64,000 nucleotides of DNA from Naegleria gruberi (taxonomy: Eukaryota). Within the stretch, counting starts at the first letter, position 1; each line of letters begins with the position of its first letter. Both the position numbers and the translations under genes were made by a program. The stretch is taken from assembly GCA_000004985.1 (NCBI GenBank), contig GG738878.1; one strand, given 5' to 3'. Below the pieces are notes generated by a model. That model was not told the DNA's origin and made no database searches. It saw nothing but the letters and a program-made list of their open reading frames with translations. Positions 24,377 through 43,686 of the stretch are shown here, piece by piece.

Positions 24377-25678
24377 ATGAAAACATCTCTCTTGGTTTTA
24401 TGCACCTTGATGGTACTCTGTGTATCCATTATGGCTGTGTCTGGCTCCTTCTTGGAACAAATTGTGGAAATGTCACTTTCTGATTCTAGAAGTTTCAAGT
24501 CGGGTGGTGGTAGCTCTGGAGGAGGTAGCAAATCTGGAAGCAGTAGCAGCAGCTCTGGAAAGTCATCCAGTAAGTCATCCTCATCCTCCAGTAAGAGTAC
24601 TAGCTCTAGTAAAACCTCCACTTCAAAGAGTTATAGCAAGTCAACTGTCTCATCAAAGATGGCCTCAGCTTATTCTCAATATGCTAACAGTAGAATTGCT
24701 GGTATGAAGAATCCAGCCAGCACCATGGCTGGTCTCAAAGCTGCCAATTTGAATGCTCGTTTAAGTGCTCAACCAACTGCTACTGTCAATGGTAAATTGA
24801 CTGCTGCTGGTATCAAGGCCTCTTATCAAAATCGATTGAATACAAGAGTTGCTGCTGCCTATCAACAATATGCTCAATCCAGAATGGCTGCTGCCAAACC
24901 AACTGCTAAGCCAACCAATATTGCTGCAGCTTATCAACAATACGCCCAATCTAGAATTGCTGGTATGAAGAATCCTGCTAGCACTTTGTCTAAACCAACT
25001 GCCAAACCTGCCAATATTGCTGCTGCCTATCAACAATATGCTCAGTCCAGAATTGCTGGTTTGAAGAATCCTGCCAGTACTCTCCCAGGTAGTTTCAAGA
25101 TTGATAAGGGTTTGCTTACTGTTAATGAAGGTAAACCTGCCACTACTGGTTACGTTCCACAATCCAAGGCAGGTACTGTCATTGGTAAATCAGGTGTTAC
25201 TGTTGGTACTGGATTCGATGTTGGTCAACAAAATGTTAAGGGTTTGAAAGCTCTTGGACTTTCACCAAGTTTAGTCGACAAGCTTTCTCCATACACTGGA
25301 TTGAAGCAACAAGCAGCTAAGGACTTTTTGGCTAAGAATCCATTGTCCCTATCGCCTGCTGAAGTTGCATCCATTGATAAGGCAGTTATGGACAAGTTTT
25401 CTGCCAATTTGGCCAAAGATTATGCAGCTGCTGCTGCCAAGAATCCAACTGCTGTCAAGAATTTCAAGGATTTGCCAGCTCCTGTCCAATCAGTTGCTTA
25501 CAGTGTCTACCATCAATATGGAAGCTTCTCCAAGACTCCAAGCTTCATGAACAAGTTGGCCACCAATGATTACAATGGAATGGTTCATGAATTGAGAAAC
25601 TTTGGTGATTCTTACTCAACAAGAAGAAATCGTGAAGCTGATCATTTGGAAAGTGGTTTGAAGGCTGCTTCAGGATAA
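24377..25678 (+). CDS. secreted protein with a Ser/Lys-rich low-complexity region, AAYQQYAQSRIAGMKNPAST repeats and a C-terminal phage-type lysozyme-like domain (paralog of 13787..15121)
   Basis: The ORF is 433 aa. The signal peptide is MKTSLLVLCTLMVLCVSIMAVSG, followed by SFLEQIVEMSLSDS. A (S/K)n tract follows. Three copies of a ~22-aa AAYQQYAQSR(I/M)AG(M/L)KNPAST repeat come next. The conserved C-terminal domain (FKIDKGLLTVNEG...GVTVGTGFDVGQQ...YSTRRNREADHLESGLKAASG) is shared with the 13787 gene. Confidence 0.6.
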   Translation: MKTSLLVLCTLMVLCVSIMAVSGSFLEQIVEMSLSDSRSFKSGGGSSGGGSKSGSSSSSSGKSSSKSSSSSSKSTSSSKTSTSKSYSKSTVSSKMASAYSQYANSRIAGMKNPASTMAGLKAANLNARLSAQPTATVNGKLTAAGIKASYQNRLNTRVAAAYQQYAQSRMAAAKPTAKPTNIAAAYQQYAQSRIAGMKNPASTLSKPTAKPANIAAAYQQYAQSRIAGLKNPASTLPGSFKIDKGLLTVNEGKPATTGYVPQSKAGTVIGKSGVTVGTGFDVGQQNVKGLKALGLSPSLVDKLSPYTGLKQQAAKDFLAKNPLSLSPAEVASIDKAVMDKFSANLAKDYAAAAAKNPTAVKNFKDLPAPVQSVAYSVYHQYGSFSKTPSFMNKLATNDYNGMVHELRNFGDSYSTRRNREADHLESGLKAASG

Positions 25679-25774: not shown

Positions 25775-27370
25775 TTAAAATCTCTTCCTCCTAATCAATT
25801 CAACCACCTCACTCATAAATTCCCTATCCTTGATGAGTTCTGGAGAAATAGATGTTAGAGAGCTGATTCCATGTATATTGAACAAATTCTCATCATGTTC
25901 CAACGCTGTGAGAACCACTTCCTTGTCCCTCTTAATTCTCTCATCGAACAATTGCAACAATGGGCCACTAATGGCTACAACTTGCAATGCAAATGATTTG
26001 TTGTGAAATAGTCCAGGTTGGAATAGCTTGAGTTTGAAAAGAGAGAAGGGATTTGACTTGCAAGCTTCGATAATCATATCAAAATCATCCTTGAATTTGG
26101 TCTTGTGAAGAAGATAGCCATTCTTTCTGATAGCTTCCAAGACGAAATCTCTGTTACCTGTTAGATCTGGGTGCAGGTAGCAATTTTCAGAATCTTTGGA
26201 TCCAATCGAATCAAGTACGAATTCCTTATTGAGTTGGAATGATTCGTGTGCGTATTCAAGTGCAGAGCTGTTCTGTTTCACTGCTGTTCGAATAATTTCC
26301 TCGTCCATCTTTAAATCATCACTAGCAAATTGTAAATCAGAACCTCTTCTTGCAACAGCTGTTAATACAATCTCTCTATCGCAGCGAAACCCTTCTGGTG
26401 TTACTGAGAGTGACATTCCATTCCTAACAAGGTTCATCACAACATTCCTATTCTTCATTAAAGAATCATTTATACCCTTCAAAGAGGTAATTTTGAAATT
26501 ATCTAAACAATGGTTAATAAACTCCTCGTCCTGTTTTAAATCTTTTGAAATGAAAGGAAATGCTTCCAAACTATTATTCATGGCTTCCAAAGCTATGACC
26601 TTATCTGATTTTAGAGATTGAGAAGCAAACTTTAACGATCCACCATTAGACTTAACTGCCTCTAAAACAATCTCCCTATCACTCCTTAACAGATCACTTG
26701 CATGATTCAAGTCATTTCCACAAGCTCTGACACATTTCAATACCAAATCTCTGTCCTCTCTGGCATCATCATTAAAGTAATCCAAACATCCACTTAATTC
26801 TACTCCAATACATGCTTCCATCACTTCCCTATCAGAGAAAACCTCAAATGGTAATTGATTAAGAGCAATCTTTGTTCCTTTCAAGGCTTCCAAAATCACA
26901 AATTTATCATTTTGCAAATCATCATCCAGCATTATGTAATTTCTAAAGTTATTCCTCACAGCTGTCAATATTAATTCTCTATCACTAACCAACAATTCAT
27001 CACTGATATACTCTGTAATAGAATGGCCAGTTTGAGCTGCAACCATCAACAATTCCCTATCATTGGAAATTAATTCGGAATAATCTTGCTCTTCTTCATC
27101 AGTGCGATGAGAGGATGGCAACGATTCCAAATAATTAAGCAATATATTAATACTCAAACCTCGCCTAATAGCTTGCAAGAATAATTCTCTACTACTTGGT
27201 GTTGTATTCATCAAATAATCTTCATACAAGACACTTAATTTAGAGAGAAACTTTTCCGATTTGAAACACAATACATCATCATTACCTTCATCACTTGTCT
27301 GCATTGTAGAATAATAGCTTGCACCAAAAATCAAAGGATTCCTTGATAAATTCATCATCCAAATAATCAA
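25775..27370 (-). CDS. DUF4116-type tandem-repeat protein
   Basis: The ORF is 531 aa. It holds at least 8 tandem ~37-aa repeats of the form D(R/K)E(I/F)VLxAVxxNGxxLxFASxxLKxDxE. An overlapping upstream ORF (27291..27602, other frame) carries one more repeat-like unit (SDREKIIQAITTINLDCFDYLDDEFI). The true start may therefore lie near 27602, with an indel or unresolved junction at about 27300-27370. Confidence 0.55.
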   Translation of the reverse strand: MIIWMMNLSRNPLIFGASYYSTMQTSDEGNDDVLCFKSEKFLSKLSVLYEDYLMNTTPSSRELFLQAIRRGLSINILLNYLESLPSSHRTDEEEQDYSELISNDRELLMVAAQTGHSITEYISDELLVSDRELILTAVRNNFRNYIMLDDDLQNDKFVILEALKGTKIALNQLPFEVFSDREVMEACIGVELSGCLDYFNDDAREDRDLVLKCVRACGNDLNHASDLLRSDREIVLEAVKSNGGSLKFASQSLKSDKVIALEAMNNSLEAFPFISKDLKQDEEFINHCLDNFKITSLKGINDSLMKNRNVVMNLVRNGMSLSVTPEGFRCDREIVLTAVARRGSDLQFASDDLKMDEEIIRTAVKQNSSALEYAHESFQLNKEFVLDSIGSKDSENCYLHPDLTGNRDFVLEAIRKNGYLLHKTKFKDDFDMIIEACKSNPFSLFKLKLFQPGLFHNKSFALQVVAISGPLLQLFDERIKRDKEVVLTALEHDENLFNIHGISSLTSISPELIKDREFMSEVVELIRRKRF

Positions 27371-27906: not shown

Positions 27907-29226
27907 ATGAAGGAAATTATTCCCCTCTGTTTTGGACAATGTGGTATCAATATTGGCTCTGATTTTATTCAACAAATCTACAGGGAACATTTTTTCCCTT
28001 CCAAATCTTCATCCTCATCAATTCATGATCGGAATGCTAATTATAATGAAAATGATGAATTGATGATGAATACAATGAGAGGAGAAGCCTCTATTTACTT
28101 TTCCGAATCATCCAATAGTACATTCACCTCTCGGGGTCTTTTAATTGATTTACAAAGCCAATTTAAATATCAATCTAAATTGTTGAATAATGATGAAATA
28201 CAAAATACAATTGATTTGAATAATAATGTAATATTTCCAAGACAGAATGGTGTGTATTGCTCTCCAGATTGGCCAGGTGGTAAATATGAATCCGGAGCTG
28301 ATTTATTTACCAATGATGTGATGGATCGAGTGAGGAAATTATTGGAGGATTGTGATTCGTTTCATGGATTTCAGTTTTTTCATGGGATGGTTGGATCTTC
28401 GAGTGGTTTCTACTCGAGAATTTGTGCACATTTGAGAGAGGAGTATCCTGATAAGATGTTTTGGTCATGTAGTGTATTTCATGATTCCAAGAGTGAGGAT
28501 AAAGCAGTGTGGATGTATGATTCCATATTGACCTTTCAGTACATGATGGAGCTCAATGATATGATTACCTGTGTGAGGAATAGTGAGCTAATTGATAAAT
28601 GTGTACAGAATGGAAAGGATTATCCAACTTATAGAGATTATAATAATGTGATTAGAAGCTTCTTTCCAAACATTACATCAGTTTTTAGGTATCCTTCTCA
28701 ACAAGGATGTGATTTGAGGAAAATGTGTCTCAATCTTGCACCTACCAGACACTGCTTGATTGAAGTTAGTGAAACTACTGCTTTACAAAATGAGACAACA
28801 CCTATTTATGAAACAATTTATAATTTGAATAGTCAATTGATTCAACAAAAGAGTTCAGAGAAGATCCTTTCTGCCATTTCAATATTGAGAGCTAGTGGAA
28901 CATTGGGCTTGGAAGCAGAAAGAAACCTTCGGAAATCAGTCAAAGATCATTCACAATCAGAATTTCCATTCAAACCCCTTGTTGTGAATCAACAATCAAG
29001 CGATAACACGATCAGCAATACATTGCTTACCAACTCTTCATCAATTACCACGGCTCTGGAAAATATTTATGAAGTAACAGAAAGATTTTTCAGAAGGAAA
29101 ACTTTCATTTATGGATACACAAGAGGAGGATTAGAGGAAATGGAAATTACTGAATCTCAGTATTATCTTCGAGAGGCTATTGATACTTATACAGAGAGCG
29201 AACCTAAAGAAGATGAACTTGCTTAA
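27907..29226 (+). CDS. highly divergent tubulin-superfamily protein with a degenerate GTP-binding signature
   Basis: The ORF is 439 aa. The N-terminus MKEIIPLCFGQCGINIGSDFIQQIYREHF aligns with tubulin MREI..GQCGNQIG..FW. The segment HGFQFFHGMVGSSSGFYSRICAHLREEYPDKM aligns with tubulin [32 protein letters not shown], but the glycine loop is GMVGSSSG rather than GGGTGSG. The rest is strongly diverged. Confidence 0.6.
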   Translation: MKEIIPLCFGQCGINIGSDFIQQIYREHFFPSKSSSSSIHDRNANYNENDELMMNTMRGEASIYFSESSNSTFTSRGLLIDLQSQFKYQSKLLNNDEIQNTIDLNNNVIFPRQNGVYCSPDWPGGKYESGADLFTNDVMDRVRKLLEDCDSFHGFQFFHGMVGSSSGFYSRICAHLREEYPDKMFWSCSVFHDSKSEDKAVWMYDSILTFQYMMELNDMITCVRNSELIDKCVQNGKDYPTYRDYNNVIRSFFPNITSVFRYPSQQGCDLRKMCLNLAPTRHCLIEVSETTALQNETTPIYETIYNLNSQLIQQKSSEKILSAISILRASGTLGLEAERNLRKSVKDHSQSEFPFKPLVVNQQSSDNTISNTLLTNSSSITTALENIYEVTERFFRRKTFIYGYTRGGLEEMEITESQYYLREAIDTYTESEPKEDELA

Positions 29227-30400: not shown

Positions 30401-31428
30401 GATGATGATGATTAATTATTGATTATTATTAATATATTTGTTATCTTGTTATTAAATCTTTGATGATAATAAATTAATTTCTTCTCTCTTTAATTAAAAT
30501 TATTAATAATAATAAATATTAATTGATGATGATGATCAATAAGAAGAAGAATTTGATTTTTTTTCTGTTGTTTGGTTTGAAGGAGATGATAATCAACTAG
30601 ATGATTTATTGTTTTTTCAAATGGATTGGAATTACGGAGTTGAAGAGGAGAAACTATTGGTTGGAATTTCAGACAAGTAACTCCTGAAGATTGTGAATGG
30701 TTCAACCTTCATCAGGAGTAATAAGACTGAGGAGGAATGTTATTATGAATTTATTGTGTTGTGAACAAGTTCAAAGATTACATGAATTTGTTTGAATTGT
30801 ACTTGTATGATCTTATTTAGAGGGTTTATGTTGGTTGGTATCAACCTTCCACTTGTATTTTCTCCTTCTTCTGAAGATATTCTATGAATTATCTTCCTCA
30901 CACTTGTTAGATTCCTCAATAGCTTCCTCTGTTGATAATGTTCTTTGCCTTCTCAAATTATTGATGATGTTATGTTCAAGTACTTCTTTGCCTACCTTCT
31001 CAAAAGGTACCAATTTTACTTTTAATTATCGAGTTGTTGATGCTTGGAAGTGAAGACGCATCTTCCAACAATATTCTTCATAAGCAACTAATAGATGATG
31101 TGTACACGAAGTGAGAGTTGCTTTTCGATTTGTCTTCAGGCAATTAAATCCCCAAGATGATTTCCCTTCTGATGATGAATGGTTGTACACACTATAGTTG
31201 TTAGGCTTGCGTTCCGAATGTTATTGTATTCTTCATCCAATTAAAAGCCTTCCAATCCATCTGATAAACATCTTAACGATAACTTCAACAATTTTTATGT
31301 ATTATTGTTCTTCTCTTTTCAAAGCCTTTTTGCCTTCTCTTCATCAAATTGGCTTGAAAAAATTTTCATTGTAAAAAGCGTGGATGAGCAAACAACTTTA
31401 AAAATTGTTCGAAAAAAAAAGTCAAAAA

Positions 31429-32040
31429 ATGGGCGCCTATAAGTACTTGAATGCCTTGTATAAGAAGAAGCAATCTGATGCTTTGAGATATTTGTTGAGA
31501 GTCCGTGCTTGGGAATTAAGACAATTGCCAGGTATCCACAGAGTTAACCACCCAACCAGACCAGACAAGGCTCACGCTCTTGGTTTCAAATCCAAGCAAG
31601 GTTACGTCATCTACAGAGTCAGAATTCGTAGAGGTGGTCGTAAAAAGCAAGTCCCAGGTGGTAGAGTCAATGGTAAGCCAGCTACTCAAGGTATCCACTT
31701 GAAGCCAAAGAGAAACTTGCAAGTTGTTGCTGAAGGCAGAGTTGGTAAGAGAATTGGTGGTTTGAGAATTTTGAACTCATACTGGGTTAACCAAGACGGT
31801 AGATACAAGTGGTTCGAAGTCATCTGTGTTGATCCATCTGCTGAATCAATCAGAGTTGATCCACAAGTTAACTGGATCGCTTCTCCAAAGCATAAGCACA
31901 GAGAAATGAGAGGTTTGACTTCCTCTGGTAAGAGACACAGAGGTCTCAGAACTAAGGGGTGTACCTCATCCAAGGTTAGACCATCCAGAAGAGGCGGTTG
32001 GAAGAGAAGAAACACCACCAAGTTGCAAAGAAAGAGATAA
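31429..32040 (+). CDS. RPL15: 60S ribosomal protein L15 (eL15)
   Basis: [78 protein letters not shown]... is a near-canonical eL15 sequence. The gene is a single exon. The ORF-track start at 31405 is a TTG, and the true ATG is at 31429. Confidence 0.9.
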
Positions 32041-32807: not shown

Positions 32808-34406
32808 ATGATGTCAAATAATACAGTGACAGTTGGCAACTCAACAATTTGCCATGAATTTCTGTTTAATACAACATCGAGCAGAGAAATTCTACCTTCA
32901 ATTGAATATGATATCTGTCCTGATACCTACATTTCGTTTTGTAAGTTTCCCACAATCTCTACAATTGTGAATCCTAAACCAAACTAAACCTGTATTCGAA
33001 ACAATACAATAGCCATACTGTTGGCCTTTCTCACTGGATACATTCTACTTCTCCTCATCACTACCATTCTTGTCATATGGAAACGAAACTCTGGACATAT
33101 CCTTGCTCGTGATCCAGCTCAGTTAATCTTAACCATGTTGACAGGATTTCAATTTGTGGCCATTTTCTCACTTCGAATAATTATTGGAAGAAAGATCTTT
33201 CCATGTGCCCTGTATTCATATTGTTTCTTTGTTGTGGGGCCTGTAATTTGTCTTCCTTCCATATGTAGAAGTTTAAAATTATATTTCCATTTCAAGTTAA
33301 ATCTTCAGAAAATGAAATTCTTCAAGGAAAGTGAAACTCCAGACGATTCTTCATCTGTATTTTCAAGTTCTGATTCCATGTCTCATAATTCAGTGAAACA
33401 GAAATTACCAAATTTGAGAGTTTTGAAATTTTATCAATTTATGGTTAGCCACAAATTTATTATTGCAACCTATATCGGAGTTTTTATTATTCAAACCGCA
33501 ATATGGGCTATCGTTGGTGGAATTGATGAGATTTTATATTCACTCAATACGGATTTACAAAATAGGAAAAGGTTTTTTGTGAGTCCAGGATTTTTTGAAT
33601 TTAAAATTGGATGCAGTTTGACAAGTGGAATTTTAATTGTAATCTTGATTGAGTCAGTGTTTTATATTGCAGCTGAGGTGATTACATTGATAATGTGTAT
33701 TAGATCTGATAGAGATACTTGGTCAATTAAGAAGGAAACTTTGATTTATGTCATTGTTCAATCAATTGGAATTTCTCTATTTGTCATTTCATCATTTATT
33801 GATATCATGTCAATATTGGTTGATTATTTCGTACCATATGCCTTGTTCATGTTTGGAGCTCTTGCTTTGGAAACTATCATTTGTGTGCTACTTCCTGTGT
33901 GTTATGCTATTAGAAAGGATTTCCACTCAACACATCACAATCCACAAGATAGCACTCTGGAAAGTATTTTGAAAAACAAGAAGGGATTCAAAACAATTCT
34001 CGATTTTGCTCGTAGATCCTATTGTCCAGAAGCAGTTCTCTGTTGGTCTGATATTCAGAGATTTAAGGATTGTAAGAAACGTGAGAAAAAGCTTGAAATT
34101 GCCAAGTATATTATTGAGCATTATTTGACACCTTCCAGTTATTTAGAGTTAAATATGCCACAATTGGCAAATGTCAAGGAGGAATTAAGTTTGATGGTGA
34201 TGGGTTCAGCAAGTACAGTTTCTAATGATGTATTCGATATGATTGAGAATCATTGTTTGCAGGATTTGGCTGATTTACAGCATAGATTGGTGAGCAGTGA
34301 TAAATTTATCGCATCAATGGTGCAAGAATTGAAGGAATTACAAAGATTGAAAGCAAGCTGTGAAGAGAAGGTAGAAGAAACTTTCAATGTTGAATTGGAA
34401 ATTTAA
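32808..34406 (+). CDS. seven-transmembrane protein with a C-terminal RGS domain (7TM-RGS); two exons join(32808..32940, 33013..34406)
   Basis: Exon 1 is MMSNNTVTVGNSTICHEFLFNTTSS... with NxS/T sequons, typical of an extracellular GPCR N-terminus. It ends TTT T|GTAAGT. The acceptor CAATAG|CC restores the frame. Exon 2 encodes about 7 hydrophobic helices and then an RGS-like domain (KTILDFARRSYCPEAVLCWSDIQRFKD..AKYIIEHYLTPSSYLELNMPQ), followed by a coiled-coil tail. Confidence 0.6.
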
Positions 34407-36709
34407 AACTGTGACAAGTTGATGATTATTCCTCGCATTAGCTTGTCCGGTAATTTCTCAATCCTTGCATAATCAGTGAAGAGGAGTTTTTTGTTTGAGA
34501 CTCCAAAGTTGACCAGTTCATTAAGAATATTCTCAAATAAAGGGCAATTTAAATAATTTTCAAAACTTGATGCAAGATCAAAGTAATTATCAATTGTAAT
34601 TATCAGCGTACTTTTAAAATAATCAACAAAATAATGAATTTCATGAATGATTGCCATATCAATTAATGTAAAAAGTTTTGATGGATCTATCTCGTAAACT
34701 GGAATTCCATAACAATATTTGATGATAATTTCTAATAATTCCAAATCCATTGAATCATCAGGTGTAAAGACATCATCACTAAGATCACTGAATGATGATC
34801 CACTTTCGAATAATGCATTAAAAAATGTACTTTTGGAACTGAGTATTGTTTTGTGGCAGTATAAATACTTGTCTTGTCCCATTTTGATTTTAACGTCGCT
34901 TGCTTTTTCATTATTAAATAATCTTTCAATTCCCTGTTGTTCAATTTCATTATCCTCCTGTATTTCAATTGGACTTGTAACATGTGTTTCCATTACAGAT
35001 AAAATGTTAAAGCTATATCTCTTAATGATGGGATAAGACAAAAGTGTTTTTCCTGTAAGAGACTTTAACTGGATGGCAGAATATTCCAAACAATAATTGT
35101 TCAAATATTCAAGTAAATGATTTTGAATTTCTATTTCTTCATGACAAAGTTTGAGTAAATTATCAACTTGTTCCCATTTTGAAGGAAGTGTTTCCAGTGT
35201 GATGGAATTAATAAATCCATGTACAAATGCTCTTTTAAAATCGATAAATTCACAATTCTTGAACATTCCTAAAATGAATAATACATTCAATATATCATAT
35301 TCTCTAAATGAATTCAATCTTTCAATCTCTGTAAATTGATATATATTTTCATATATCAATGAATCAATTAGTTTTTGTATAATTACTATTTGTTGCGAAT
35401 TCATTGATTTCAATAGTTTTTCATTTTTCAATATTATTTTACAAAATTGTGGTGATAACTTTTCTATTAATGGAATAAATCCAATCAATTCCAATCCAAA
35501 TAATTCATCTCTTGAATGTTTTTTCAATTGGATTTTTGGAATTATAGTATAATCATTTCCAATATGTGGATGCGATGAAAAATCAAATGGTGAATCACCT
35601 CCAAATCCTTCTTCACCATTTCCAGCAATTGTTTTAATTGTTCCATTTCTTAATATTTTTCTAATTCTATGATTTTCTGTATCAGCAATATAAACTTCAT
35701 CATTTCGAGAAACGAATATATTGTCTACATATGATATTTGTGCATTAATTGCAAGTCCTCCATCACCACTATATCCTTTAACTCCAGTTCCTGCAATTGT
35801 TGTAATATTGGCATTTCTTAATATTTTTCTAATTCTATAATTTCCACTATTCATAATATAAACTTCATTCGTTGATGAAACAAATACACCACATGGATGG
35901 TTAACTTGTGCATTAATTGCAGGACCACCATCACCACTGAATCCTTCTTCTCCAGTTCCTGCAATTGTATTAATAATTCCATTTCTTAATATTTTTCTAA
36001 TTCGATGATTGTTGTAATCTACAATATAAACTTCATCGTTATTAGAAACAAAAACACCACAAGGGCTGTCTAATTGTGCACTTGTTGCAGGGCCACCATC
36101 TCCACTAAATCCTTTTTCTCCAGTTCCTGCAATTGTTACAATAGTTCCATTTCTCAATATCTTTCTAATTCTATGATTTCCAAAATCAGAAAAATAAATT
36201 TCATCATTTTGAGAAACGAATATATTCTGTACATATGATATTTGTGCATTAATTGCAGGTCTACCATCACCACTATATCCTTTTTCTCCAGTTCCTGCAA
36301 TTGTTACAATATTGCCATTTCTTAATATTTTTCTAATTCTATAATTTCCACTATCAGCAAAAAAAACTTCATTCGTTGATGAAACAAATACACTACATGG
36401 ATGGCTCAATTGTGCACTTGTTGCAGGATCACCGTCACCACTAAATCCTTCTTCTCCAGTTCCTGCGATGGTGACTATAGTTCCATCTTTTAATATTTTT
36501 CTCACCCTATGATTTTGGCAATCTGCCATATAAACCTCATCATTCGGAGCAACAAACACTCCTCCCGGACAATTTAACATTGCTTTAGTGGCTAATTTTT
36601 TATTCATCATTTTAGCCTTTTTCTTTACTTTATTTTCGTCATTTTCATCATTTTCTGATGATGAAGAAGCCGATGATGATGCGGATGAAGAACAAAGGCT
36701 TCGTTTCAT
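34403..36709 (-). CDS. NHL-repeat beta-propeller protein with a C-terminal BTB/POZ domain (paralog A)
   Basis: About 769 aa from MKRSL at 36709. The ORF-track start at 36733 is an upstream in-frame TTG. It has at least 7 NHL-type repeats (..HRIRKILRNGTIVTIAGTGEEGFSGDGGPA..AQL..PCGVFVS..DEVY.AD..N). A helical middle region follows. The C-terminal BTB is DVKIKMGQDKYLYCHKTILSSKSTFFNALFESGSSFSDLSDDVFTPDDSMDLELLEIIIKYCYG. Its stop codon overlaps the stop of the convergent 7TM-RGS gene. Confidence 0.7.
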   Translation of the reverse strand: MKRSLCSSSASSSASSSSENDENDENKVKKKAKMMNKKLATKAMLNCPGGVFVAPNDEVYMADCQNHRVRKILKDGTIVTIAGTGEEGFSGDGDPATSAQLSHPCSVFVSSTNEVFFADSGNYRIRKILRNGNIVTIAGTGEKGYSGDGRPAINAQISYVQNIFVSQNDEIYFSDFGNHRIRKILRNGTIVTIAGTGEKGFSGDGGPATSAQLDSPCGVFVSNNDEVYIVDYNNHRIRKILRNGIINTIAGTGEEGFSGDGGPAINAQVNHPCGVFVSSTNEVYIMNSGNYRIRKILRNANITTIAGTGVKGYSGDGGLAINAQISYVDNIFVSRNDEVYIADTENHRIRKILRNGTIKTIAGNGEEGFGGDSPFDFSSHPHIGNDYTIIPKIQLKKHSRDELFGLELIGFIPLIEKLSPQFCKIILKNEKLLKSMNSQQIVIIQKLIDSLIYENIYQFTEIERLNSFREYDILNVLFILGMFKNCEFIDFKRAFVHGFINSITLETLPSKWEQVDNLLKLCHEEIEIQNHLLEYLNNYCLEYSAIQLKSLTGKTLLSYPIIKRYSFNILSVMETHVTSPIEIQEDNEIEQQGIERLFNNEKASDVKIKMGQDKYLYCHKTILSSKSTFFNALFESGSSFSDLSDDVFTPDDSMDLELLEIIIKYCYGIPVYEIDPSKLFTLIDMAIIHEIHYFVDYFKSTLIITIDNYFDLASSFENYLNCPLFENILNELVNFGVSNKKLLFTDYARIEKLPDKLMRGIIINLSQF

Positions 36710-36752
36710 TTTTTTTGTAAAAAAAATCTTCAAATGAAAAGATCAAGTCAAC

Positions 36753-39187
36753 NNNNNNNNNNNNNNNNNNNNNNNNNNNNNNNNNNNNNNNNNNNNNNNN
36801 NNNNNNNNNNNNNNNNNNNNNNNNNNNNNNNNNNNNNNNNNNNNNNNNNNNNNNNNNNNNNNNNNNNNNNNNNNNNNNNNNNNNNNNNNNNNNNNNNNNN
36901 NNNNNNNNNNNNNNNNNNNNNNNNNNNNNNNNNNNNNNNNNNNNNNNNNNNNNNNNNNNNNNNNNNNNNNNNNNNNNNNNNNNNNNNNNNNNNNNNNNNN
37001 NNNNNNNNNNNNNNNNNNNNNNNNNNNNNNNNNNNNNNNNNNNNNNNNNNNNNNNNNNNNNNNNNNNNNNNNNNNNNNNNNNNNNNNNNNNNNNNNNNNN
37101 NNNNNNNNNNNNNNNNNNNNNNNNNNNNNNNNNNNNNNNNNNNNNNNNNNNNNNNNNNNNNNNNNNNNNNNNNNNNNNNNNNNNNNNNNNNNNNNNNNNN
37201 NNNNNNNNNNNNNNNNNNNNNNNNNNNNNNNNNNNNNNNNNNNNNNNNNNNNNNNNNNNNNNNNNNNNNNNNNNNNNNNNNNNNNNNNNNNNNNNNNNNN
37301 NNNNNNNNNNNNNNNNNNNNNNNNNNNNNNNNNNNNNNNNNNNNNNNNNNNNNNNNNNNNNNNNNNNNNNNNNNNNNNNNNNNNNNNNNNNNNNNNNNNN
37401 NNNNNNNNNNNNNNNNNNNNNNNNNNNNNNNNNNNNNNNNNNNNNNNNNNNNNNNNNNNNNNNNNNNNNNNNNNNNNNNNNNNNNNNNNNNNNNNNNNNN
37501 NNNNNNNNNNNNNNNNNNNNNNNNNNNNNNNNNNNNNNNNNNNNNNNNNNNNNNNNNNNNNNNNNNNNNNNNNNNNNNNNNNNNNNNNNNNNNNNNNNNN
37601 NNNNNNNNNNNNNNNNNNNNNNNNNNNNNNNNNNNNNNNNNNNNNNNNNNNNNNNNNNNNNNNNNNNNNNNNNNNNNNNNNNNNNNNNNNNNNNNNNNNN
37701 NNNNNNNNNNNNNNNNNNNNNNNNNNNNNNNNNNNNNNNNNNNNNNNNNNNNNNNNNNNNNNNNNNNNNNNNNNNNNNNNNNNNNNNNNNNNNNNNNNNN
37801 NNNNNNNNNNNNNNNNNNNNNNNNNNNNNNNNNNNNNNNNNNNNNNNNNNNNNNNNNNNNNNNNNNNNNNNNNNNNNNNNNNNNNNNNNNNNNNNNNNNN
37901 NNNNNNNNNNNNNNNNNNNNNNNNNNNNNNNNNNNNNNNNNNNNNNNNNNNNNNNNNNNNNNNNNNNNNNNNNNNNNNNNNNNNNNNNNNNNNNNNNNNN
38001 NNNNNNNNNNNNNNNNNNNNNNNNNNNNNNNNNNNNNNNNNNNNNNNNNNNNNNNNNNNNNNNNNNNNNNNNNNNNNNNNNNNNNNNNNNNNNNNNNNNN
38101 NNNNNNNNNNNNNNNNNNNNNNNNNNNNNNNNNNNNNNNNNNNNNNNNNNNNNNNNNNNNNNNNNNNNNNNNNNNNNNNNNNNNNNNNNNNNNNNNNNNN
38201 NNNNNNNNNNNNNNNNNNNNNNNNNNNNNNNNNNNNNNNNNNNNNNNNNNNNNNNNNNNNNNNNNNNNNNNNNNNNNNNNNNNNNNNNNNNNNNNNNNNN
38301 NNNNNNNNNNNNNNNNNNNNNNNNNNNNNNNNNNNNNNNNNNNNNNNNNNNNNNNNNNNNNNNNNNNNNNNNNNNNNNNNNNNNNNNNNNNNNNNNNNNN
38401 NNNNNNNNNNNNNNNNNNNNNNNNNNNNNNNNNNNNNNNNNNNNNNNNNNNNNNNNNNNNNNNNNNNNNNNNNNNNNNNNNNNNNNNNNNNNNNNNNNNN
38501 NNNNNNNNNNNNNNNNNNNNNNNNNNNNNNNNNNNNNNNNNNNNNNNNNNNNNNNNNNNNNNNNNNNNNNNNNNNNNNNNNNNNNNNNNNNNNNNNNNNN
38601 NNNNNNNNNNNNNNNNNNNNNNNNNNNNNNNNNNNNNNNNNNNNNNNNNNNNNNNNNNNNNNNNNNNNNNNNNNNNNNNNNNNNNNNNNNNNNNNNNNNN
38701 NNNNNNNNNNNNNNNNNNNNNNNNNNNNNNNNNNNNNNNNNNNNNNNNNNNNNNNNNNNNNNNNNNNNNNNNNNNNNNNNNNNNNNNNNNNNNNNNNNNN
38801 NNNNNNNNNNNNNNNNNNNNNNNNNNNNNNNNNNNNNNNNNNNNNNNNNNNNNNNNNNNNNNNNNNNNNNNNNNNNNNNNNNNNNNNNNNNNNNNNNNNN
38901 NNNNNNNNNNNNNNNNNNNNNNNNNNNNNNNNNNNNNNNNNNNNNNNNNNNNNNNNNNNNNNNNNNNNNNNNNNNNNNNNNNNNNNNNNNNNNNNNNNNN
39001 NNNNNNNNNNNNNNNNNNNNNNNNNNNNNNNNNNNNNNNNNNNNNNNNNNNNNNNNNNNNNNNNNNNNNNNNNNNNNNNNNNNNNNNNNNNNNNNNNNNN
39101 NNNNNNNNNNNNNNNNNNNNNNNNNNNNNNNNNNNNNNNNNNNNNNNNNNNNNNNNNNNNNNNNNNNNNNNNNNNNNNNNNNNNNNN
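36753..39187. other. assembly gap (N-run, 2435 nt)
   Basis: A continuous run of n characters. ORF-track entries that cross it (X-stretch ORFs) are artifacts. Confidence 1.
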
Positions 39188-40599
39188 AAAATGAATAATA
39201 CATTCAATATATCATATACTCTAAATGAATTCAATCTTTCAACCTCTGTAAAATGATATATATTTTCATATATCAATGAATCAATTAGTTTTTGTATAAT
39301 TTCTATTTGTTGCGAATTCATTGATCTCAATAGTTTTTCATTTTTCAATATTATTTTACAAAATTGTGGTGATAATTTTTCTATTAATGGAATAAATCCA
39401 ATCAAATTCAATCCAAATAATTCATCTCTTGAATGTTTTTTCAATTGGATTTTTGGAATTATAGTATAATCATTTCCAATATGTGGATGCGATGAAAAAT
39501 CAAATGGTGAATCACCTCCAAATCCTTTTTCACCATTTCCAGCAATTGTTTCAATTGTTCCATCTTTCAATATTTTTCTAATTCGATGATTATTTGTATC
39601 AGCAATATAAACTTCATCATTTTGAGAAACAAATATATTCTCTACATATGATATTTGTGCATTAATTGCAAGTCCTCCATCACCACTATATCCTTTAACT
39701 CCAGTTCCTGCAATTGTTGTAATATTGCCATTTCTTAATATTTTCCTAATTCTATAATTATAACTATCAGTAATATAAACTTCATTCGTTGATGAAACAA
39801 ATACACCACATGGATGGCTCAATTGTGCACTTGTTGCAGGTCCTCCATCACCTCCAAATCCTTGTTCACCAGTTCCTGCAATTGTTATAATTGTTCCATC
39901 TTGCAACATCTTTCTAATTCGATGACTCTTGTAATCTACAATATAAACTTCATCGTTATTAGAAACAAAAACACCACAAGGGGTGTTTAATTTTGCATTA
40001 ATTGCAGGACCACCATCTCCACTAAATCCTTGTTCACCAGTTCCTGCAATTGTTACAATAGTTCCATTTCTCAATATCTTTCTAATTCTATGATTTCTAA
40101 AATCAGAAAAATAAACTTCATCATTTTGAGAAACGAATATATTATTTACAGCTGATATTTGTGCATTAATTGCAGGTCCTCCATCTCCACTATATCCTTC
40201 TTCTCCAGTTCCTGCAATTGTTACAATATTGCCATTTCTTAATATTTTTCTAATTCTATAATTTCCAAAATCAGAAATATAAACTTCATTCGTTGATGAA
40301 ACAAATACATCACATGGATGGTTAAATTGTGCACTTGTTGCAGGTCCACCATCACCACTGAATCCTTCTCCTTCTTCTTCTCCAATTCCTGCAATGGTGA
40401 CTATGGTTCCATCTTTTAATATTTTTCTCACCCGATGATTTAGGTTATCAGCAATATAAATTTCATCATTCGGAGCAACAAACACTCCTCCTGGACAATT
40501 TAACATTGCATCGGTGGCCATCATCATTTTGGCTTTTTTAAATTTATTTTCATCAGCAACATTTTCGTCATTATTAGAGGAAGCAAGACTTCGTTTCAT
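39188..40599 (-). CDS. NHL-repeat/BTB protein paralog B (5' part only; the 3' end lies in the assembly gap)
   Basis: It starts MKRSLASSNNDENVADENKFKKAKMMMATDAMLNCPGGVFVAPNDEIYIADNLNHRVRKIL.. and continues with NHL repeats. The sequence just right of the gap (39188..~39520) is about 97% identical to 35281..35610 of paralog A. Confidence 0.65.
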
Positions 40600-41319
40600 T
40601 TTTTTTTAACATTTTCAATACAGGTTTACAATGAATATATTAGGTTACTGCTAAGACAAAATTGACTTTGGATTGTAAAAACAGTGTTTCATGTTTGCTT
40701 TCCAAAAATCTTGTTTTAAATTCTTTCTTAATGTAATAAAACTTTATTTTAAAAAAACTTAATATAGAAATAATAGATTCAGTGAAATTTTGATGTTGGA
40801 TTGTGGATTTTGTTATTTAATGGATGGGTCTTGTGTAGCCTGTCTCCATCCATAGATATGCTATCATTGAAACTTGGCGATTACAAAAAAATTATCTGAA
40901 GTTGGGCCAATTAGACAATGACTACAATAATAGCACACACTCTCTGGAGAAACTCTCTCGTCTTATCAGCAAAGACTCCTCAACTTTATTTGGGACAAGC
41001 ACAAAAGAACACCTAAGAACGTGGCAGCTTTAAAACACTTTAACTCTTGTTAATACATAATATTTGGTGTTGGTGGTAGACGAGACATCAAGTATGTCGA
41101 TGTTATTACAAAACTGTGTGATGTTCGACTCATTTGATTTGGTCTGATTGTTTTTTTTGATCACGTTTAGCTGATTAAGTTTATCATGAGATTAGAAGTA
41201 TCCCTATTCCTTGATTCGAATATGTTTTCAAATAAAGCTTGGAATCGAACTCATCAGATACAACAATTTCAAAATAGATAACTAGTCCTTTAAACTAATA
41301 TTACAAAAAGTTTAAAAAA

Positions 41320-43686
41320 ATGAAACGAAGTCTTGCTACTACACATTCATCGGAATCGAATAATGGAGAAAGTTGTGATGCTGCTAATGATGAAAATAAA
41401 TTAAAAAAGGCTAAAATGATGATGGCCACCGATGCAATGCTAAATTGTCCAGTGGAGGTATTTGTTGCTCCGAATGATGAAATTTATATTGCTGATAGAG
41501 ATAATCATCGGGTGAGAAAAATACTAAAAGATGGAACAATGGTAACCATTGCAGGATGGAGTTTTGGTGGTTTTGGTGGTGATGGTGGTCCTGCAACGAG
41601 TGCAATGTTGGATTTTCCCACAAGTATTGCTGTTTCTTCAGATAATGAAGTGTATATTGCTGATTTGGGAATTTATAGAATTAGGAAAATATTAAGAAAT
41701 GGTAATATTGTAACAATTGCTGGAACTGGAGAAGAAGGATTTAGTGGTGATGGAGGACCTGCAATTAATGCACAAATATCAGCTGTGTGGAATATTGCCC
41801 TTTCTCAAAATAATGAATTGTATTTTGTTGACTATTCAAACTGTAGAATCAGGAAAATATTAAGAAATGGAACTATTGTAACAATTGCAGGAACTGGAGA
41901 AGACGGATTTAGTGGAGATGGTGGACTCGCAATCAATGCAAAACTTGGCTATCCTTGCAGTGTTTTTGTTTCCAAAGATGATGAGGTGTATATTGCTGAT
42001 AGCCAAAATAATAGGGTGAGAAAAATATTGAGAAATGGAATTATTAATACAATTGCAGGAACTGGAGAAGAAGGATTCAGTGGTGATGGTGGACCTGCAA
42101 CAAATGCACAATTGAACGTTCCATGTGGTGTATTTGTTTCAGCAACGAATGAAGTTTATATTGTGGATAGTGGAAATTGTAGAATTAGAAAAATATTGAG
42201 AAATGGAATTATTAATACAATTGCAGGAACTGGAGAAGAAGGATATAGTGGTGATGGAGGACCTGCAATTAATGCACAAATATCAAATGTATACAATATA
42301 TTCGTTTCTCAAAATGATGAAGTTTATATTGCCGATACAAATAATCACAGAATTAGAAAAATATTGAAAGATGGAACAATTGAAACAATTGCTGGAAATG
42401 GTGAAAAAGGATTCAGTGGTGATTCACCATTTGATTTTTCATCGCATCCACACATTGGAAATGATTATACTATAATTCCAAAAATCCAATTGAAAAAACA
42501 TTCAAGAGATGAATTATTTGGATTGGAATTGATTGGATTTATTCCATTAATAGAAAAGTTATCACCACAATTTTGTAAAATAATATTGAAAAATGAAAAA
42601 CTATTGAAATCAATGAATTCGCAACAAATAGAAATTATTCAAAAACTAATTGATTCATTGATATATGAAAATGTATATCATTTTACAGAGATTGAAAGAT
42701 TGAATTCATTTAAAGAATATGATATATTGAATGTATTATTCATTTTAGGAATGTTCAAGAATTGTGAATTTATTGATTTTAAAAGAGTATTTGTAAACGC
42801 ATTTATTAATTCCATCACGCTGGAAACACTTCCTTCAAAATGGGAACAAAGTGAGAATTTACTCAAATTTTGTCAAGAAATAGAAGTTGAAAATTACATA
42901 TTGGAATATTTGAATAATTATTGTTTGGAATATTCTGCCATTCAATTGAGAAATCCACAATCAGCAAAACATCTTAAAACTGCACCAATCATTATGAGAA
43001 ATAGTCTGAATATTGTATTAATGTTGGAAGTAACAACGACAAGTCCAATGCAAATAGAAGACACTGAAATTAAACTACAAGGAATGGAATCACTATTTAA
43101 TGATGAGAAGTCCAGTGATGTTAAAATCAAAATAAGCAAAGACCAATATTTATATTGTCACAAATCAATACTAAGCAGTTCGTGTATTTTTTTTAATGCA
43201 TTATTCGAAAGTGGATCATCATTCAGTGATCTTAGTGATGATGTCTTTACACCTGATGAATCAGAAGATTTAGAATTATTGGAAATTAGTATCAAAAGTT
43301 GTTATGGGATTCCAATCCATAACTCTTTTAGTTTTATTAGATTAATAGATATAGCTTTGAAACATGAAAATCAATGCCTAATTTATCATTGCAAGAAAAA
43401 CTTTTCACTAACAATTGATAATTATTTCGAAAAAGCCTTAGAATGTGGAAAATATTTTCATTTAGATTGTTTTTCAAGTTTTTTTGATACTTTTTTGAGC
43501 TTTGGAACACGAAATTGTGAAAAACTCTTCACAGATTGTGCAAAAGTTGGTCAATTACCAGAGCAACTTCGCAATGCCTTAATCATCGACTTTACACTAG
43601 TGTTGAGCTTTTCCTCGAGACCTGCTCTCACTTGGAGATATCCGAATGTTTATTATGATGACCCTGAGTTTGGTGTTCGTTTTTAA
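41320..43686 (+). CDS. NHL-repeat/BTB protein paralog C (788 aa)
   Basis: It has the same architecture and an N-terminus collinear with paralogs A and B (MKRSLATTHSSESNNGESCDAANDENKLKKAKMMMATDAMLNCP..). The C-terminal BTB is DVKIKISKDQYLYCHKSILSSSCIFFNALFESGSSFSDLSDDVFTPDESEDLELLEISIKSCYG. Confidence 0.7.
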   Translation: MKRSLATTHSSESNNGESCDAANDENKLKKAKMMMATDAMLNCPVEVFVAPNDEIYIADRDNHRVRKILKDGTMVTIAGWSFGGFGGDGGPATSAMLDFPTSIAVSSDNEVYIADLGIYRIRKILRNGNIVTIAGTGEEGFSGDGGPAINAQISAVWNIALSQNNELYFVDYSNCRIRKILRNGTIVTIAGTGEDGFSGDGGLAINAKLGYPCSVFVSKDDEVYIADSQNNRVRKILRNGIINTIAGTGEEGFSGDGGPATNAQLNVPCGVFVSATNEVYIVDSGNCRIRKILRNGIINTIAGTGEEGYSGDGGPAINAQISNVYNIFVSQNDEVYIADTNNHRIRKILKDGTIETIAGNGEKGFSGDSPFDFSSHPHIGNDYTIIPKIQLKKHSRDELFGLELIGFIPLIEKLSPQFCKIILKNEKLLKSMNSQQIEIIQKLIDSLIYENVYHFTEIERLNSFKEYDILNVLFILGMFKNCEFIDFKRVFVNAFINSITLETLPSKWEQSENLLKFCQEIEVENYILEYLNNYCLEYSAIQLRNPQSAKHLKTAPIIMRNSLNIVLMLEVTTTSPMQIEDTEIKLQGMESLFNDEKSSDVKIKISKDQYLYCHKSILSSSCIFFNALFESGSSFSDLSDDVFTPDESEDLELLEISIKSCYGIPIHNSFSFIRLIDIALKHENQCLIYHCKKNFSLTIDNYFEKALECGKYFHLDCFSSFFDTFLSFGTRNCEKLFTDCAKVGQLPEQLRNALIIDFTLVLSFSSRPALTWRYPNVYYDDPEFGVRF

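What the first reader, a model, noticed from the sequence alone, without database searches (positions are those of the whole stretch)
32808..34406. Seven-transmembrane receptor-like protein fused to an RGS domain
The protein has a glycosylation-sequon-rich extracellular N-terminus and about 7 hydrophobic helices. A cytoplasmic RGS-like domain and a coiled-coil follow. 7TM-RGS fusions (the AtRGS1 type) combine receptor and GAP for G-alpha in one polypeptide. They are patchily distributed among eukaryotes. Its presence informs how this organism wires heterotrimeric G-protein signalling. The gene also overlaps the stop codon of the convergent NHL/BTB gene.
Basis: partly seen in the sequence, partly recalled or inferred. 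Interest (0 to 1): 0.5.

Follow-up and report, generated by a model that had tools for sequence, protein, structure and literature searches.

The report
Naegleria seven-helix receptor fused to RGS
This Naegleria gruberi gene does encode a seven-helix membrane receptor fused to a domain that switches off G proteins, but such proteins are already described and tested in Naegleria, so it is an ordinary new member whose database gene model is too short.

Summary
Window 32808-34406 (+) is a two-exon gene (72-nt GT..AG intron, 32941-33012) encoding 508 aa. It has a 45-aa N-terminus carrying the protein's only three N-x-S/T sequons and seven TM helices. A C-terminal RGS box follows (Pfam PF00615, 38.6 bits against a cut-off of 23.9, residues 360-465).

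The window is Naegleria gruberi. The public model (NAEGRDRAFT_69491, XP_002675385.1, 364 aa) starts at Met145 and lacks exon 1 and TM1-3. N. fowleri and N. lovaniensis homologues read straight across the splice junction, which supports the longer model.

The AtRGS1-type reading is therefore supported at the level of architecture and fold. Direct sequence homology between the two 7TM domains was not detectable.

The kind is not new. Bosch et al. 2022 describe 28 7TM-RGS proteins in N. fowleri and show GAP activity for the RGS domains of three.

The proposed coiled-coil is only a non-conserved terminal helix. Interest is low. The useful points are the gene-model correction and a short-ectodomain subfamily that reaches other protists.

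The parts
32808..32940 (+). Exon 1: start codon and the extracellular N-terminus (aa 1-44 plus the first base of codon 45). It carries sequons N4, N11 and N21 and the conserved Cys15 and Cys37 (the 'CP-D-T-Y' motif just before TM1).
   Evidence: The N-terminal motif is conserved in N. lovaniensis and N. fowleri homologues and in paralogues.
32941..33012 (+). Intron of 72 nt, GTAAGT...TAG, with an in-frame TAA at 32985-32987.
   Evidence: Homologues read 'ICPDTYVSF-SIML' without a gap across the junction. tblastn of the intronless N. fowleri gene spans it.
33013..34406 (+). Exon 2 (aa 45-508 and the stop TAA at 34404-34406).
33015..33905 (+). Seven-transmembrane domain, aa 46-342. Approximate TM spans are 46-67, 80-102, 109-131, 191-214, 249-272, 287-309 and 318-342. 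Conserved features are Cys109 (top of TM3) and Cys245 (ECL2), the ICL3 motif SDRDTWxIKKE (aa 276-286) and the TM7 motif LPVxY (aa 338-342).
33273..33449 (+). Long Ser-rich second intracellular loop (aa 132-190). It is low-complexity and variable in length among paralogues, and is a candidate regulatory or phosphorylation region (inferred).
   Evidence: pLDDT is below 50 for model residues 106-127. This is a variable insert in alignment A1.
33312..33314 (+). ATG (Met145) used as the start by the public 364-aa model XP_002675385.1 (NAEGRDRAFT_69491). That model omits TM1-3.
33957..34274 (+). RGS box, aa 360-465, with predicted G-alpha contact residues Glu384, Asn425, Asp465 and Arg469.
34290..34403 (+). 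C-terminal helix, aa 471-508. The N. fowleri and N. lovaniensis homologues end before it. It is not an established coiled coil.
34403..36733 (-). Convergent NHL-repeat/BTB ORF (its neighbour, not part of the protein). Its stop codon at 34403-34405 overlaps this gene's stop codon by 2 nt.
   Evidence: Pfam TEN_NHL 5.6e-31, NHL 1.6e-21, BTB 1.3e-10.

Best explanation
This is a Naegleria gruberi 7TM-RGS protein: a membrane receptor-type GTPase-activating protein for heterotrimeric G-alpha subunits.

Shown here:
- One polypeptide carries a short N-terminus with three N-glycosylation sequons and conserved cysteines, predicted to be extracellular.
- It has a GPCR-fold seven-helix bundle that is closest to class C receptors.
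- It has a cytoplasmic canonical RGS box with the G-alpha contact residues intact.

Inferred from AtRGS1 and from the tested N. fowleri 7TM-RGS proteins:
- The RGS box binds the transition state of one or more of the many Naegleria G-alpha subunits and accelerates GTP hydrolysis.
- An extracellular cue sensed by the 7TM or N-terminal part would relieve or relocate this GAP activity. The route might be phosphorylation of the Ser-rich second intracellular loop and internalisation. G-alpha-GTP could then accumulate.

The public gene model is truncated at the N-terminus and hides the seven-helix architecture.
For: - Gene structure and 508-aa product.
- Identity with N. gruberi XP_002675385.1, 100% over the shared 364 aa.
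- Exon 1 and the junction are conserved in the closest N. lovaniensis and N. fowleri homologues and in paralogues.
- RGS match above Pfam's gathering score. RGS family profile against PDB.
- AlphaFold model with pLDDT 78.3, pTM 0.66, seven TM helices plus an RGS bundle.
- Positive-inside count of 18 against 7.
- Contact residues conserved (RGS4 E87, N128, D163, R167 correspond to E384, N425, D465, R469).
- A profile of the 7TM part alone retrieves 223 proteins, and 77 of 90 long ones carry an RGS box. This shows that the fusion is an old, inherited architecture.
- Biochemical precedent in the same genus: N. fowleri 7TM-RGS RGS domains act as GAPs for Nf G-alpha 2, 3, 5 and 7, and G-alpha 5 and 7 are self-activating (PMC9283941).
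Against: - No experiment exists on this protein or its subfamily. The N. fowleri proteins that were tested have EGF, lectin or GPS ectodomains and belong to other subfamilies.
- RGS4 Asn88 is Ala385 here. Plants have Thr at this position.
- The ligand, the G-alpha partner, expression and localisation are all unknown.
- Topology and fold are predictions.
- The proposed regulation by phosphorylation and endocytosis is pure analogy with AtRGS1.
Confidence: 0.78

Rival explanations
1. It is a bona fide ligand-activated class-C-like GPCR that also acts as an exchange factor. The tethered RGS box would be a built-in terminator, giving a self-limiting receptor rather than a pure receptor-GAP.
For: The 7TM fold is closest to class C GPCRs. 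A basal relative, Pharyngomonas P0158, passes the Pfam 7tm_3 threshold. Naegleria has both slow-exchanging and fast-exchanging G-alpha subunits, and both types interact with 7TM-RGS proteins (PMC9283941).
Against: No GEF activity has been shown for any 7TM-RGS protein. The protein itself has no 7tm_3 match at E<=1. The class C TM6 tryptophan seen in distant relatives is replaced here.
Confidence: 0.12
2. The RGS box has lost GAP function and serves only as a scaffold or G-alpha anchor. Some RGS domains are known to behave this way.
For: The RGS4 Asn88 equivalent is Ala385 and the Ser85 equivalent is Cys382. The Pfam score is modest at 38.6 bits. N. gruberi has a very large and presumably redundant RGS repertoire of 229 proteins (PMC3971589).
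Against: Glu384 and Asn425 are invariant across the family, Arg469 is also invariant, and Asp465 is present. Plant RGS1 also lacks Asn at the 88 position (Thr321) and is known to be an active GAP (established knowledge on AtRGS1).
Confidence: 0.07
3. The public 364-aa model is right: translation starts at Met145 and the product has four TM helices plus RGS. The upstream ORF and 'intron' would then be non-coding or a decaying remnant.
For: This is the deposited annotation. No transcript data were available to me.
Against: Exon 1 and TM1-3 are an intact ORF with canonical splice sites. They are 45-55% identical to full-length homologues, including the invariant motifs CP-D-T-Y and RIIIGRKxFPC. 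Several other N. gruberi paralogue models show similar truncation, while the N. lovaniensis ones are full length.
Confidence: 0.03

Closest known systems
Naegleria fowleri 7TM RGS proteins (Bosch, Jeck and Siderovski 2022, J Biol Chem, PMC9283941)
   Same: Same genus and same architecture (seven TM helices followed by a C-terminal canonical RGS box). The closest homologue found, FDP41_012977 (P0003, about 50% identity), is an N. fowleri protein of this architecture. The RGS domains of three members are shown to be selective GAPs for Naegleria G-alpha subunits.
   Different: The four members cloned there (Nf 7TM RGS1-4) are described as having EGF-like, lectin-like and GPS-motif ectodomains. 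GAP activity was shown for three of them (RGS2-4). This protein has only a 45-aa Cys-containing N-terminus, and Pfam finds nothing but RGS. No member of this short-ectodomain subfamily has been tested.
Arabidopsis AtRGS1 and plant RGS1
   Different: There is no significant sequence similarity between the 7TM domains: hhalign probability is 1% and HMM scores are no better than reversed controls. This protein lacks the Ser-rich C-terminal tail used for AtRGS1 phosphorylation. It has instead a long Ser-rich ICL2. Plants have a single-copy gene, whereas Naegleria has a large paralogous family.
Class C (glutamate-type) GPCRs, especially GPR158, which recruits RGS7-G-beta5
   Different: There is no Venus-flytrap or cysteine-rich ectodomain. 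The protein itself has no Pfam 7tm_3 match, and the family profile finds no class C chain in the PDB by sequence. The RGS box is fused covalently rather than recruited.
R4-type RGS domains (RGS4, RGS8, RGS16, RGS10)
   Different: Only 15-20% identity. N88 is Ala and S85 is Cys. The domain is tethered to a membrane receptor.

Membership tests
7TM-RGS proteins (AtRGS1 type) | RGS box matching the RGS profile (PF00615) at or above the curated threshold, located C-terminal to the membrane domain | tested here: met
7TM-RGS proteins (AtRGS1 type) | Seven transmembrane helices in the same polypeptide, with the N-terminus outside and the RGS box cytoplasmic | tested here: met
   Seven hydrophobic segments and seven TM helices in the AlphaFold model. 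K+R counts are 18 inside and 7 outside, and all sequons lie in the N-terminus. This is prediction only.
7TM-RGS proteins (AtRGS1 type) | The 7TM bundle has the GPCR fold, closest to class C, as reported for AtRGS1 | tested here: met
7TM-RGS proteins (AtRGS1 type) | Sequence homology of the 7TM domain to plant RGS1 (common descent of the whole fusion) | tested here: inconclusive
   hhalign probability is 1.1%, equal to reversed controls. HMM scores are no better than reversed controls. Each side has only weak or transitive links to Pfam 7tm_3.
7TM-RGS proteins (AtRGS1 type) | G-alpha contact and catalytic-support residues of the RGS box (RGS4 E87 = AtRGS1 E320; RGS4 N128) | tested here: met
   E384 and N425 are invariant in the family. 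Mapped against a validated RGS4 sequence and Camelina RGS1. D465 and R469 were mapped through the RGS10 alignment.
7TM-RGS proteins (AtRGS1 type) | GAP activity on a self-activating G-alpha, with ligand-dependent regulation | not testable with these tools
   This needs biochemistry. The precedent exists only for other N. fowleri members (PMC9283941).
Naegleria 7TM RGS family, tested subgroup (Nf 7TM RGS1-4) | Adhesion-GPCR-like ectodomain (EGF-like repeats, lectin-like domains, GPS motif) | tested here: not met
   The N-terminus is 45 aa, and Pfam at E<=1 reports only RGS. It is therefore a different, short-ectodomain subfamily.
Class C GPCR (Pfam 7tm_3) | 7tm_3 profile match at or above the gathering score | tested here: not met
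   The protein itself has no match at E<=1. Of 90 relatives, 8 have 7tm_3 matches at E<=0.1. Pharyngomonas P0158 was seen above threshold (41.1 against 33.5), and the four others inspected were below it. The family profile finds no class C chain in the PDB by sequence.
Class C GPCR (Pfam 7tm_3) | Large ligand-binding ectodomain (Venus flytrap with or without a cysteine-rich domain) | tested here: not met
   Only 45 extracellular N-terminal residues.
Class C GPCR (Pfam 7tm_3) | Class C 7TM fold with a conserved TM3-ECL2 cysteine pair | tested here: met

The most novel reading that the evidence does not exclude
The short-ectodomain subfamily defined here has four conserved extracellular cysteines, the ICL3 motif DRDTWxIKxE and the TM7 motif PxxY.

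This subfamily may be the heterolobosean branch of an ancient, class-C-derived 7TM-RGS lineage. Its relatives are in Willaertia, Pharyngomonas, Anaeramoeba and a Clastostelium (amoebozoan) transcriptome, and the lineage may also include plant RGS1.

If so, the receptor-GAP fusion arose once, from a glutamate-type GPCR, at or near the last eukaryotic common ancestor. It would not have arisen by repeated independent fusions.
Probability: 0.3. Interest if true: 0.45.

Novelty: new member of a known kind. Interest (0 to 1): 0.22.

Why it matters
7TM-RGS proteins are the receptor side of the 'self-activating G-alpha plus receptor-GAP' mode of G-protein signalling. That mode contrasts with the animal GPCR-GEF mode. 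Naegleria is notable for having both kinds of G-alpha subunit.

This gene adds one correctly modelled member from N. gruberi, the non-pathogenic laboratory species. It also shows that automated models hide part of the family, because several N. gruberi paralogues are truncated in the same way.

It further defines a compact subfamily without adhesion-type ectodomains. Such a protein would be a simpler target for ligand and G-alpha pairing experiments.

None of this changes the current picture, so the value lies in annotation and small additions to known biology.

Tried and rejected
I modelled the exon-2 product, aa 46-508, instead. The 45-aa ectodomain is therefore not modelled.
- The afdb50 fold library was unavailable. 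I could not compare directly with AlphaFold-database models of AtRGS1 or protist 7TM-RGS proteins. I predicted a Camelina RGS1 model myself instead. Its pLDDT is only 65, so it is moderately reliable.
- The look-up of encoding contigs had no record for the N. gruberi model.
- Local synteny with the N. fowleri locus is absent. Its neighbours are Dus and Sec7 genes rather than RPL15 and NHL/BTB. Orthology of P0002 and P0003 therefore rests on best-hit identity only.
- The 7TM family profile against PDB sequences returned no GPCR at all.
- A word-indexed search with the 7TM profile returned only family members already known.
- hhalign and hmmsearch between plant RGS1 7TM domains and this family scored no better than reversed-sequence controls.
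- The coiled-coil idea was rejected as unsupported.
- Bradford et al. 2013 (Sci Signal) and Anantharaman et al. 2011 (Gene), the primary surveys of 7TM-RGS distribution, are not held in the library. They are cited only through papers that quote them.

Full report
**What is in the sequence**

The stretch 32808-34406 on the + strand contains two ORFs in the same frame, 32808-32987 and 33021-34406. They are joined by removing a 72-nt segment, 32941-33012. That segment begins GTAAGT, ends TAG, and contains the in-frame stop that closes the first ORF. An in-frame TGA lies 15 nt upstream of the ATG at 32808, so this is the first possible start. The spliced CDS is 1527 nt and encodes 508 aa. The window is 33% G+C.

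**Source and public annotation**

The C-terminal 364 residues are 100% identical to Naegleria gruberi 'predicted protein' EFC42641.1 / XP_002675385.1 / NAEGRDRAFT_69491 / UniProt D2VKS0. That model starts at Met145 (ATG 33312-33314). It therefore lacks exon 1 and the first three hydrophobic helices.

The longer model is supported by the closest homologues, N. lovaniensis C9374_005391 (573 aa) and N. fowleri FDP41_012977 (559 aa), and by most paralogues:
- They contain the N-terminal motifs 'C-H-P...S-R-E...ICPDTY[IV]SF' and 'RIIIGRKxFPC'.
- They read continuously across the position of the N. gruberi intron.
- The N. fowleri gene is intronless (1680 nt for 559 codons plus the stop).
- tblastn aligns the N. 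fowleri protein to window 32814-33338 across the intron.

Neighbouring genes differ between the two species, so orthology rests on best-hit similarity only.

**Check of the observation**

- *Membrane helices.* Kyte-Doolittle analysis gives seven hydrophobic segments. An AlphaFold2 model of the exon-2 product (aa 46-508, 17-sequence alignment) has mean pLDDT 78.3 and pTM 0.66. It shows seven long membrane helices followed by a helical bundle.
- *Sequons and topology.* All three N-x-S/T sequons (N4, N11, N21) are in the first 23 residues. Lys+Arg in the loops flanking the helices number 18 on the predicted cytoplasmic side and 7 outside. This agrees with an extracellular N-terminus and a cytoplasmic C-terminus.
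- *RGS domain.* Pfam finds RGS (PF00615) at residues 360-465, E 1.6e-9, 38.6 bits against a gathering score of 23.9, and nothing else at E<=1. A profile of the family's C-terminal region hits RGS10, RGS3, RGS5, RGS16, RGS2 and RGS4 chains in the PDB, the best at 1.8e-9.
- *Neighbouring gene.* The convergent ORF 34403-36733 (-) carries NHL/TEN_NHL repeats and a BTB domain. Its stop codon (34403-34405) overlaps this gene's stop codon (34404-34406) by two bases.
- *Coiled-coil.* This is not supported. Residues 471-508 are one predicted helix with falling confidence. Heptad periodicity is weak. The N. fowleri and N. lovaniensis homologues end before this segment, and other paralogues carry short unrelated tails.

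**Fold**

- mGlu4, mGlu1, GPR156, GPRC5D, T1R2/3 and CaSR follow

**Family**

A profile of the membrane part alone, with no RGS residues (A3), was searched against 1.84 billion representative proteins. It finds 223 proteins at E<=1e-3 and 142 at E<=1e-10. Of 90 long hits, 77 carry a Pfam RGS domain, 8 have a match to 7tm_3 (class C) at E<=0.1, and no other GPCR family appears. Because the query held no RGS sequence, the recurrent RGS box is independent evidence that the hits are true relatives and that the fusion is inherited.

Named relatives:
- many Naegleria paralogues
- Willaertia magna
- Pharyngomonas kirbyi (P0158)
- Anaeramoeba flamelloides
- a Clastostelium recurvatum transcript, which comes from a transcriptome, so contamination is not excluded

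P0158 passes the Pfam threshold for 7tm_3 (41.1 bits against 33.5, profile positions 9-233 of 251) and also has an RGS box.

Conserved positions across the family:
- Cys109 at the top of TM3 and Cys245 in ECL2. This is the position of the classical GPCR disulfide. That reading is inference.
- Two N-terminal cysteines, conserved among the full-length members.
- Arg residues at the cytoplasmic ends of TM1 and TM3.
- 'DRDTWxIKKE' in ICL3.
- 'LPVxY' in TM7. Its resemblance to the class C PKxY motif is my inference from knowledge of that family.

The protein itself has no 7tm_3 match. The family profile finds no class C chain in the PDB by sequence. The class C link therefore rests on fold similarity and on a transitive sequence link through relatives, not on a direct match.

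**Is the RGS box likely to be active?**

I checked my RGS4 sequence against 1agr and 1ezt, where it matches at E about 1e-80 and query residue 1 corresponds to residue 51. I then aligned it to the family profile:

| RGS4 | This protein |
|---|---|
| Tyr84 | Tyr381 |
| Glu87 | Glu384 |
| Trp92 | Trp389 |
| Glu126 | Glu423 |
| Asn128 | Asn425 |
| Asn88 | Ala385 |
| Ser85 | Cys382 |

Through the RGS10 alignment, Asp163 corresponds to Asp465 and Arg167 to Arg469. Glu384, Asn425 and Arg469 are invariant in the family.

The same column holds Glu320 and Asn363 in a Camelina orthologue of AtRGS1, which also lacks Asn at the 88 position and has Thr321. Glu320 is the residue whose mutation inactivates AtRGS1 (established knowledge, not tested here). 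The box therefore looks like a working GAP. This is inference.

**Comparison with AtRGS1**

I retrieved plant RGS1 proteins with a remembered AtRGS1 sequence. The best hit is Camelina RGS1 at 91% identity, and an Arabidopsis fragment is 100% identical over two-thirds of the query.

Direct tests of 7TM homology failed. hhalign gives probability 1.1%, like the reversed controls. HMM scores are no better than reversed controls. The non-significant alignment does place the plant 'GGCPSDY' on the Naegleria 'ICPDTY' just before TM1, and it pairs the ECL1 and ECL2 cysteines. I record this only as a lead. One plant RGS1 (Carya) has a sub-threshold full-length 7tm_3 match (27.6 bits, E 2.8e-6).

The two proteins therefore share architecture, fold subclass and key RGS residues. 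Common descent of the whole fusion is plausible but not demonstrated.

**What is already known**

- Bosch, Jeck and Siderovski 2022 (PMC9283941) report 28 seven-transmembrane RGS proteins in N. fowleri.
- They show that the RGS domains of three of them accelerate GTP hydrolysis on Nf G-alpha 2, 3, 5 and 7, and that this requires the canonical switch-I glycine.
- They show that Nf G-alpha 5 and 7 exchange nucleotide faster than they hydrolyse it.
- Their cloned proteins (Nf 7TM RGS1-4) have EGF, lectin or GPS ectodomains. The protein here has a 45-aa N-terminus, so it belongs to a different, untested subfamily.
- de Mendoza et al. 2014 (PMC3971589) count 229 RGS proteins in N. gruberi and note 7TM-RGS architectures in many lineages.
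- A review cites 44 G-alpha subunits in N. gruberi (PMC8584482).

**Most likely mechanism**

Shown: a membrane protein with a GPCR-type seven-helix bundle and a cytoplasmic canonical RGS box with intact contact residues.

Inferred by analogy with AtRGS1 and the N. fowleri proteins:
- It acts as a receptor-type GAP that keeps one or more fast-exchanging G-alpha subunits inactive at the membrane.
- An extracellular cue acting on the small Cys-stabilised, glycosylated N-terminus and the helix bundle relieves this.
- The long Ser-rich second intracellular loop (aa 132-190) is disordered in the model and variable among paralogues. It is a candidate phospho-regulatory element, taking the role that the C-terminal tail has in AtRGS1.

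Rivals:
- a true GEF-type class-C-like receptor with a built-in terminator;
- an RGS box reduced to a scaffold;
- the truncated four-helix product of the public model.

**Verdict**

The thing is a new, better-modelled member of a kind already described and tested in the same genus.

The modest additions are:
- the corrected gene model;
- recognition of a short-ectodomain, class-C-like subfamily with relatives in other Heterolobosea, in Anaeramoeba and possibly in Amoebozoa;
- the parallel structural ranking with plant RGS1.

Noticed in passing
window 24377-25678 (+): A 433-aa ORF with a very strong match to Pfam Pesticin (PF16754, a bacterial toxin homologue of phage lysozyme; E 7.2e-69, aa 241-400) in a eukaryotic genome. 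It may be a gene of bacterial origin.
   Followed up: no
window 34403-43686: Three NHL/TEN_NHL-repeat genes are clustered: 34403-36733 (-, with BTB), 36748-40599 (-, 1283 aa) and 41320-43686 (+, 788 aa). Between 36.6 and 40.6 kb, three ORFs longer than 840 aa overlap in different frames and on different strands. The likely cause is repeat-driven stop-free frames.
   Followed up: partly
N. gruberi paralogues P0011, P0014 and P0017; N. lovaniensis P0015; P0009 (unnamed source): Several database models of this 7TM-RGS family lack TM1-3 or the N-terminus, as the model of this gene does. Other N. lovaniensis models are full length. This points to systematic N-terminal truncation of gene models in this family, mostly in N. 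gruberi.
   Followed up: partly
window 25775-27370 (-) and 27907-29226 (+): A protein with seven DUF4116 repeats (E 2e-84) and a divergent tubulin-family ORF (PF00091, only 93 bits) lie upstream.
   Followed up: no
window 31405-32040 (+): An ORF resembling ribosomal protein L15e lies about 770 nt upstream of the 7TM-RGS start. This is my reading of the translation, and no profile search was run on it.
   Followed up: no
P0157 (Clastostelium recurvatum transcriptome) and P0134 (Anaeramoeba flamelloides): Relatives of the 7TM domain that also carry an RGS box occur outside Heterolobosea. One is an amoebozoan transcriptome, although de Mendoza et al. 2014 reported no TM-RGS proteins in amoebozoans. 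Contamination of the transcriptome is not excluded.
   Followed up: partly
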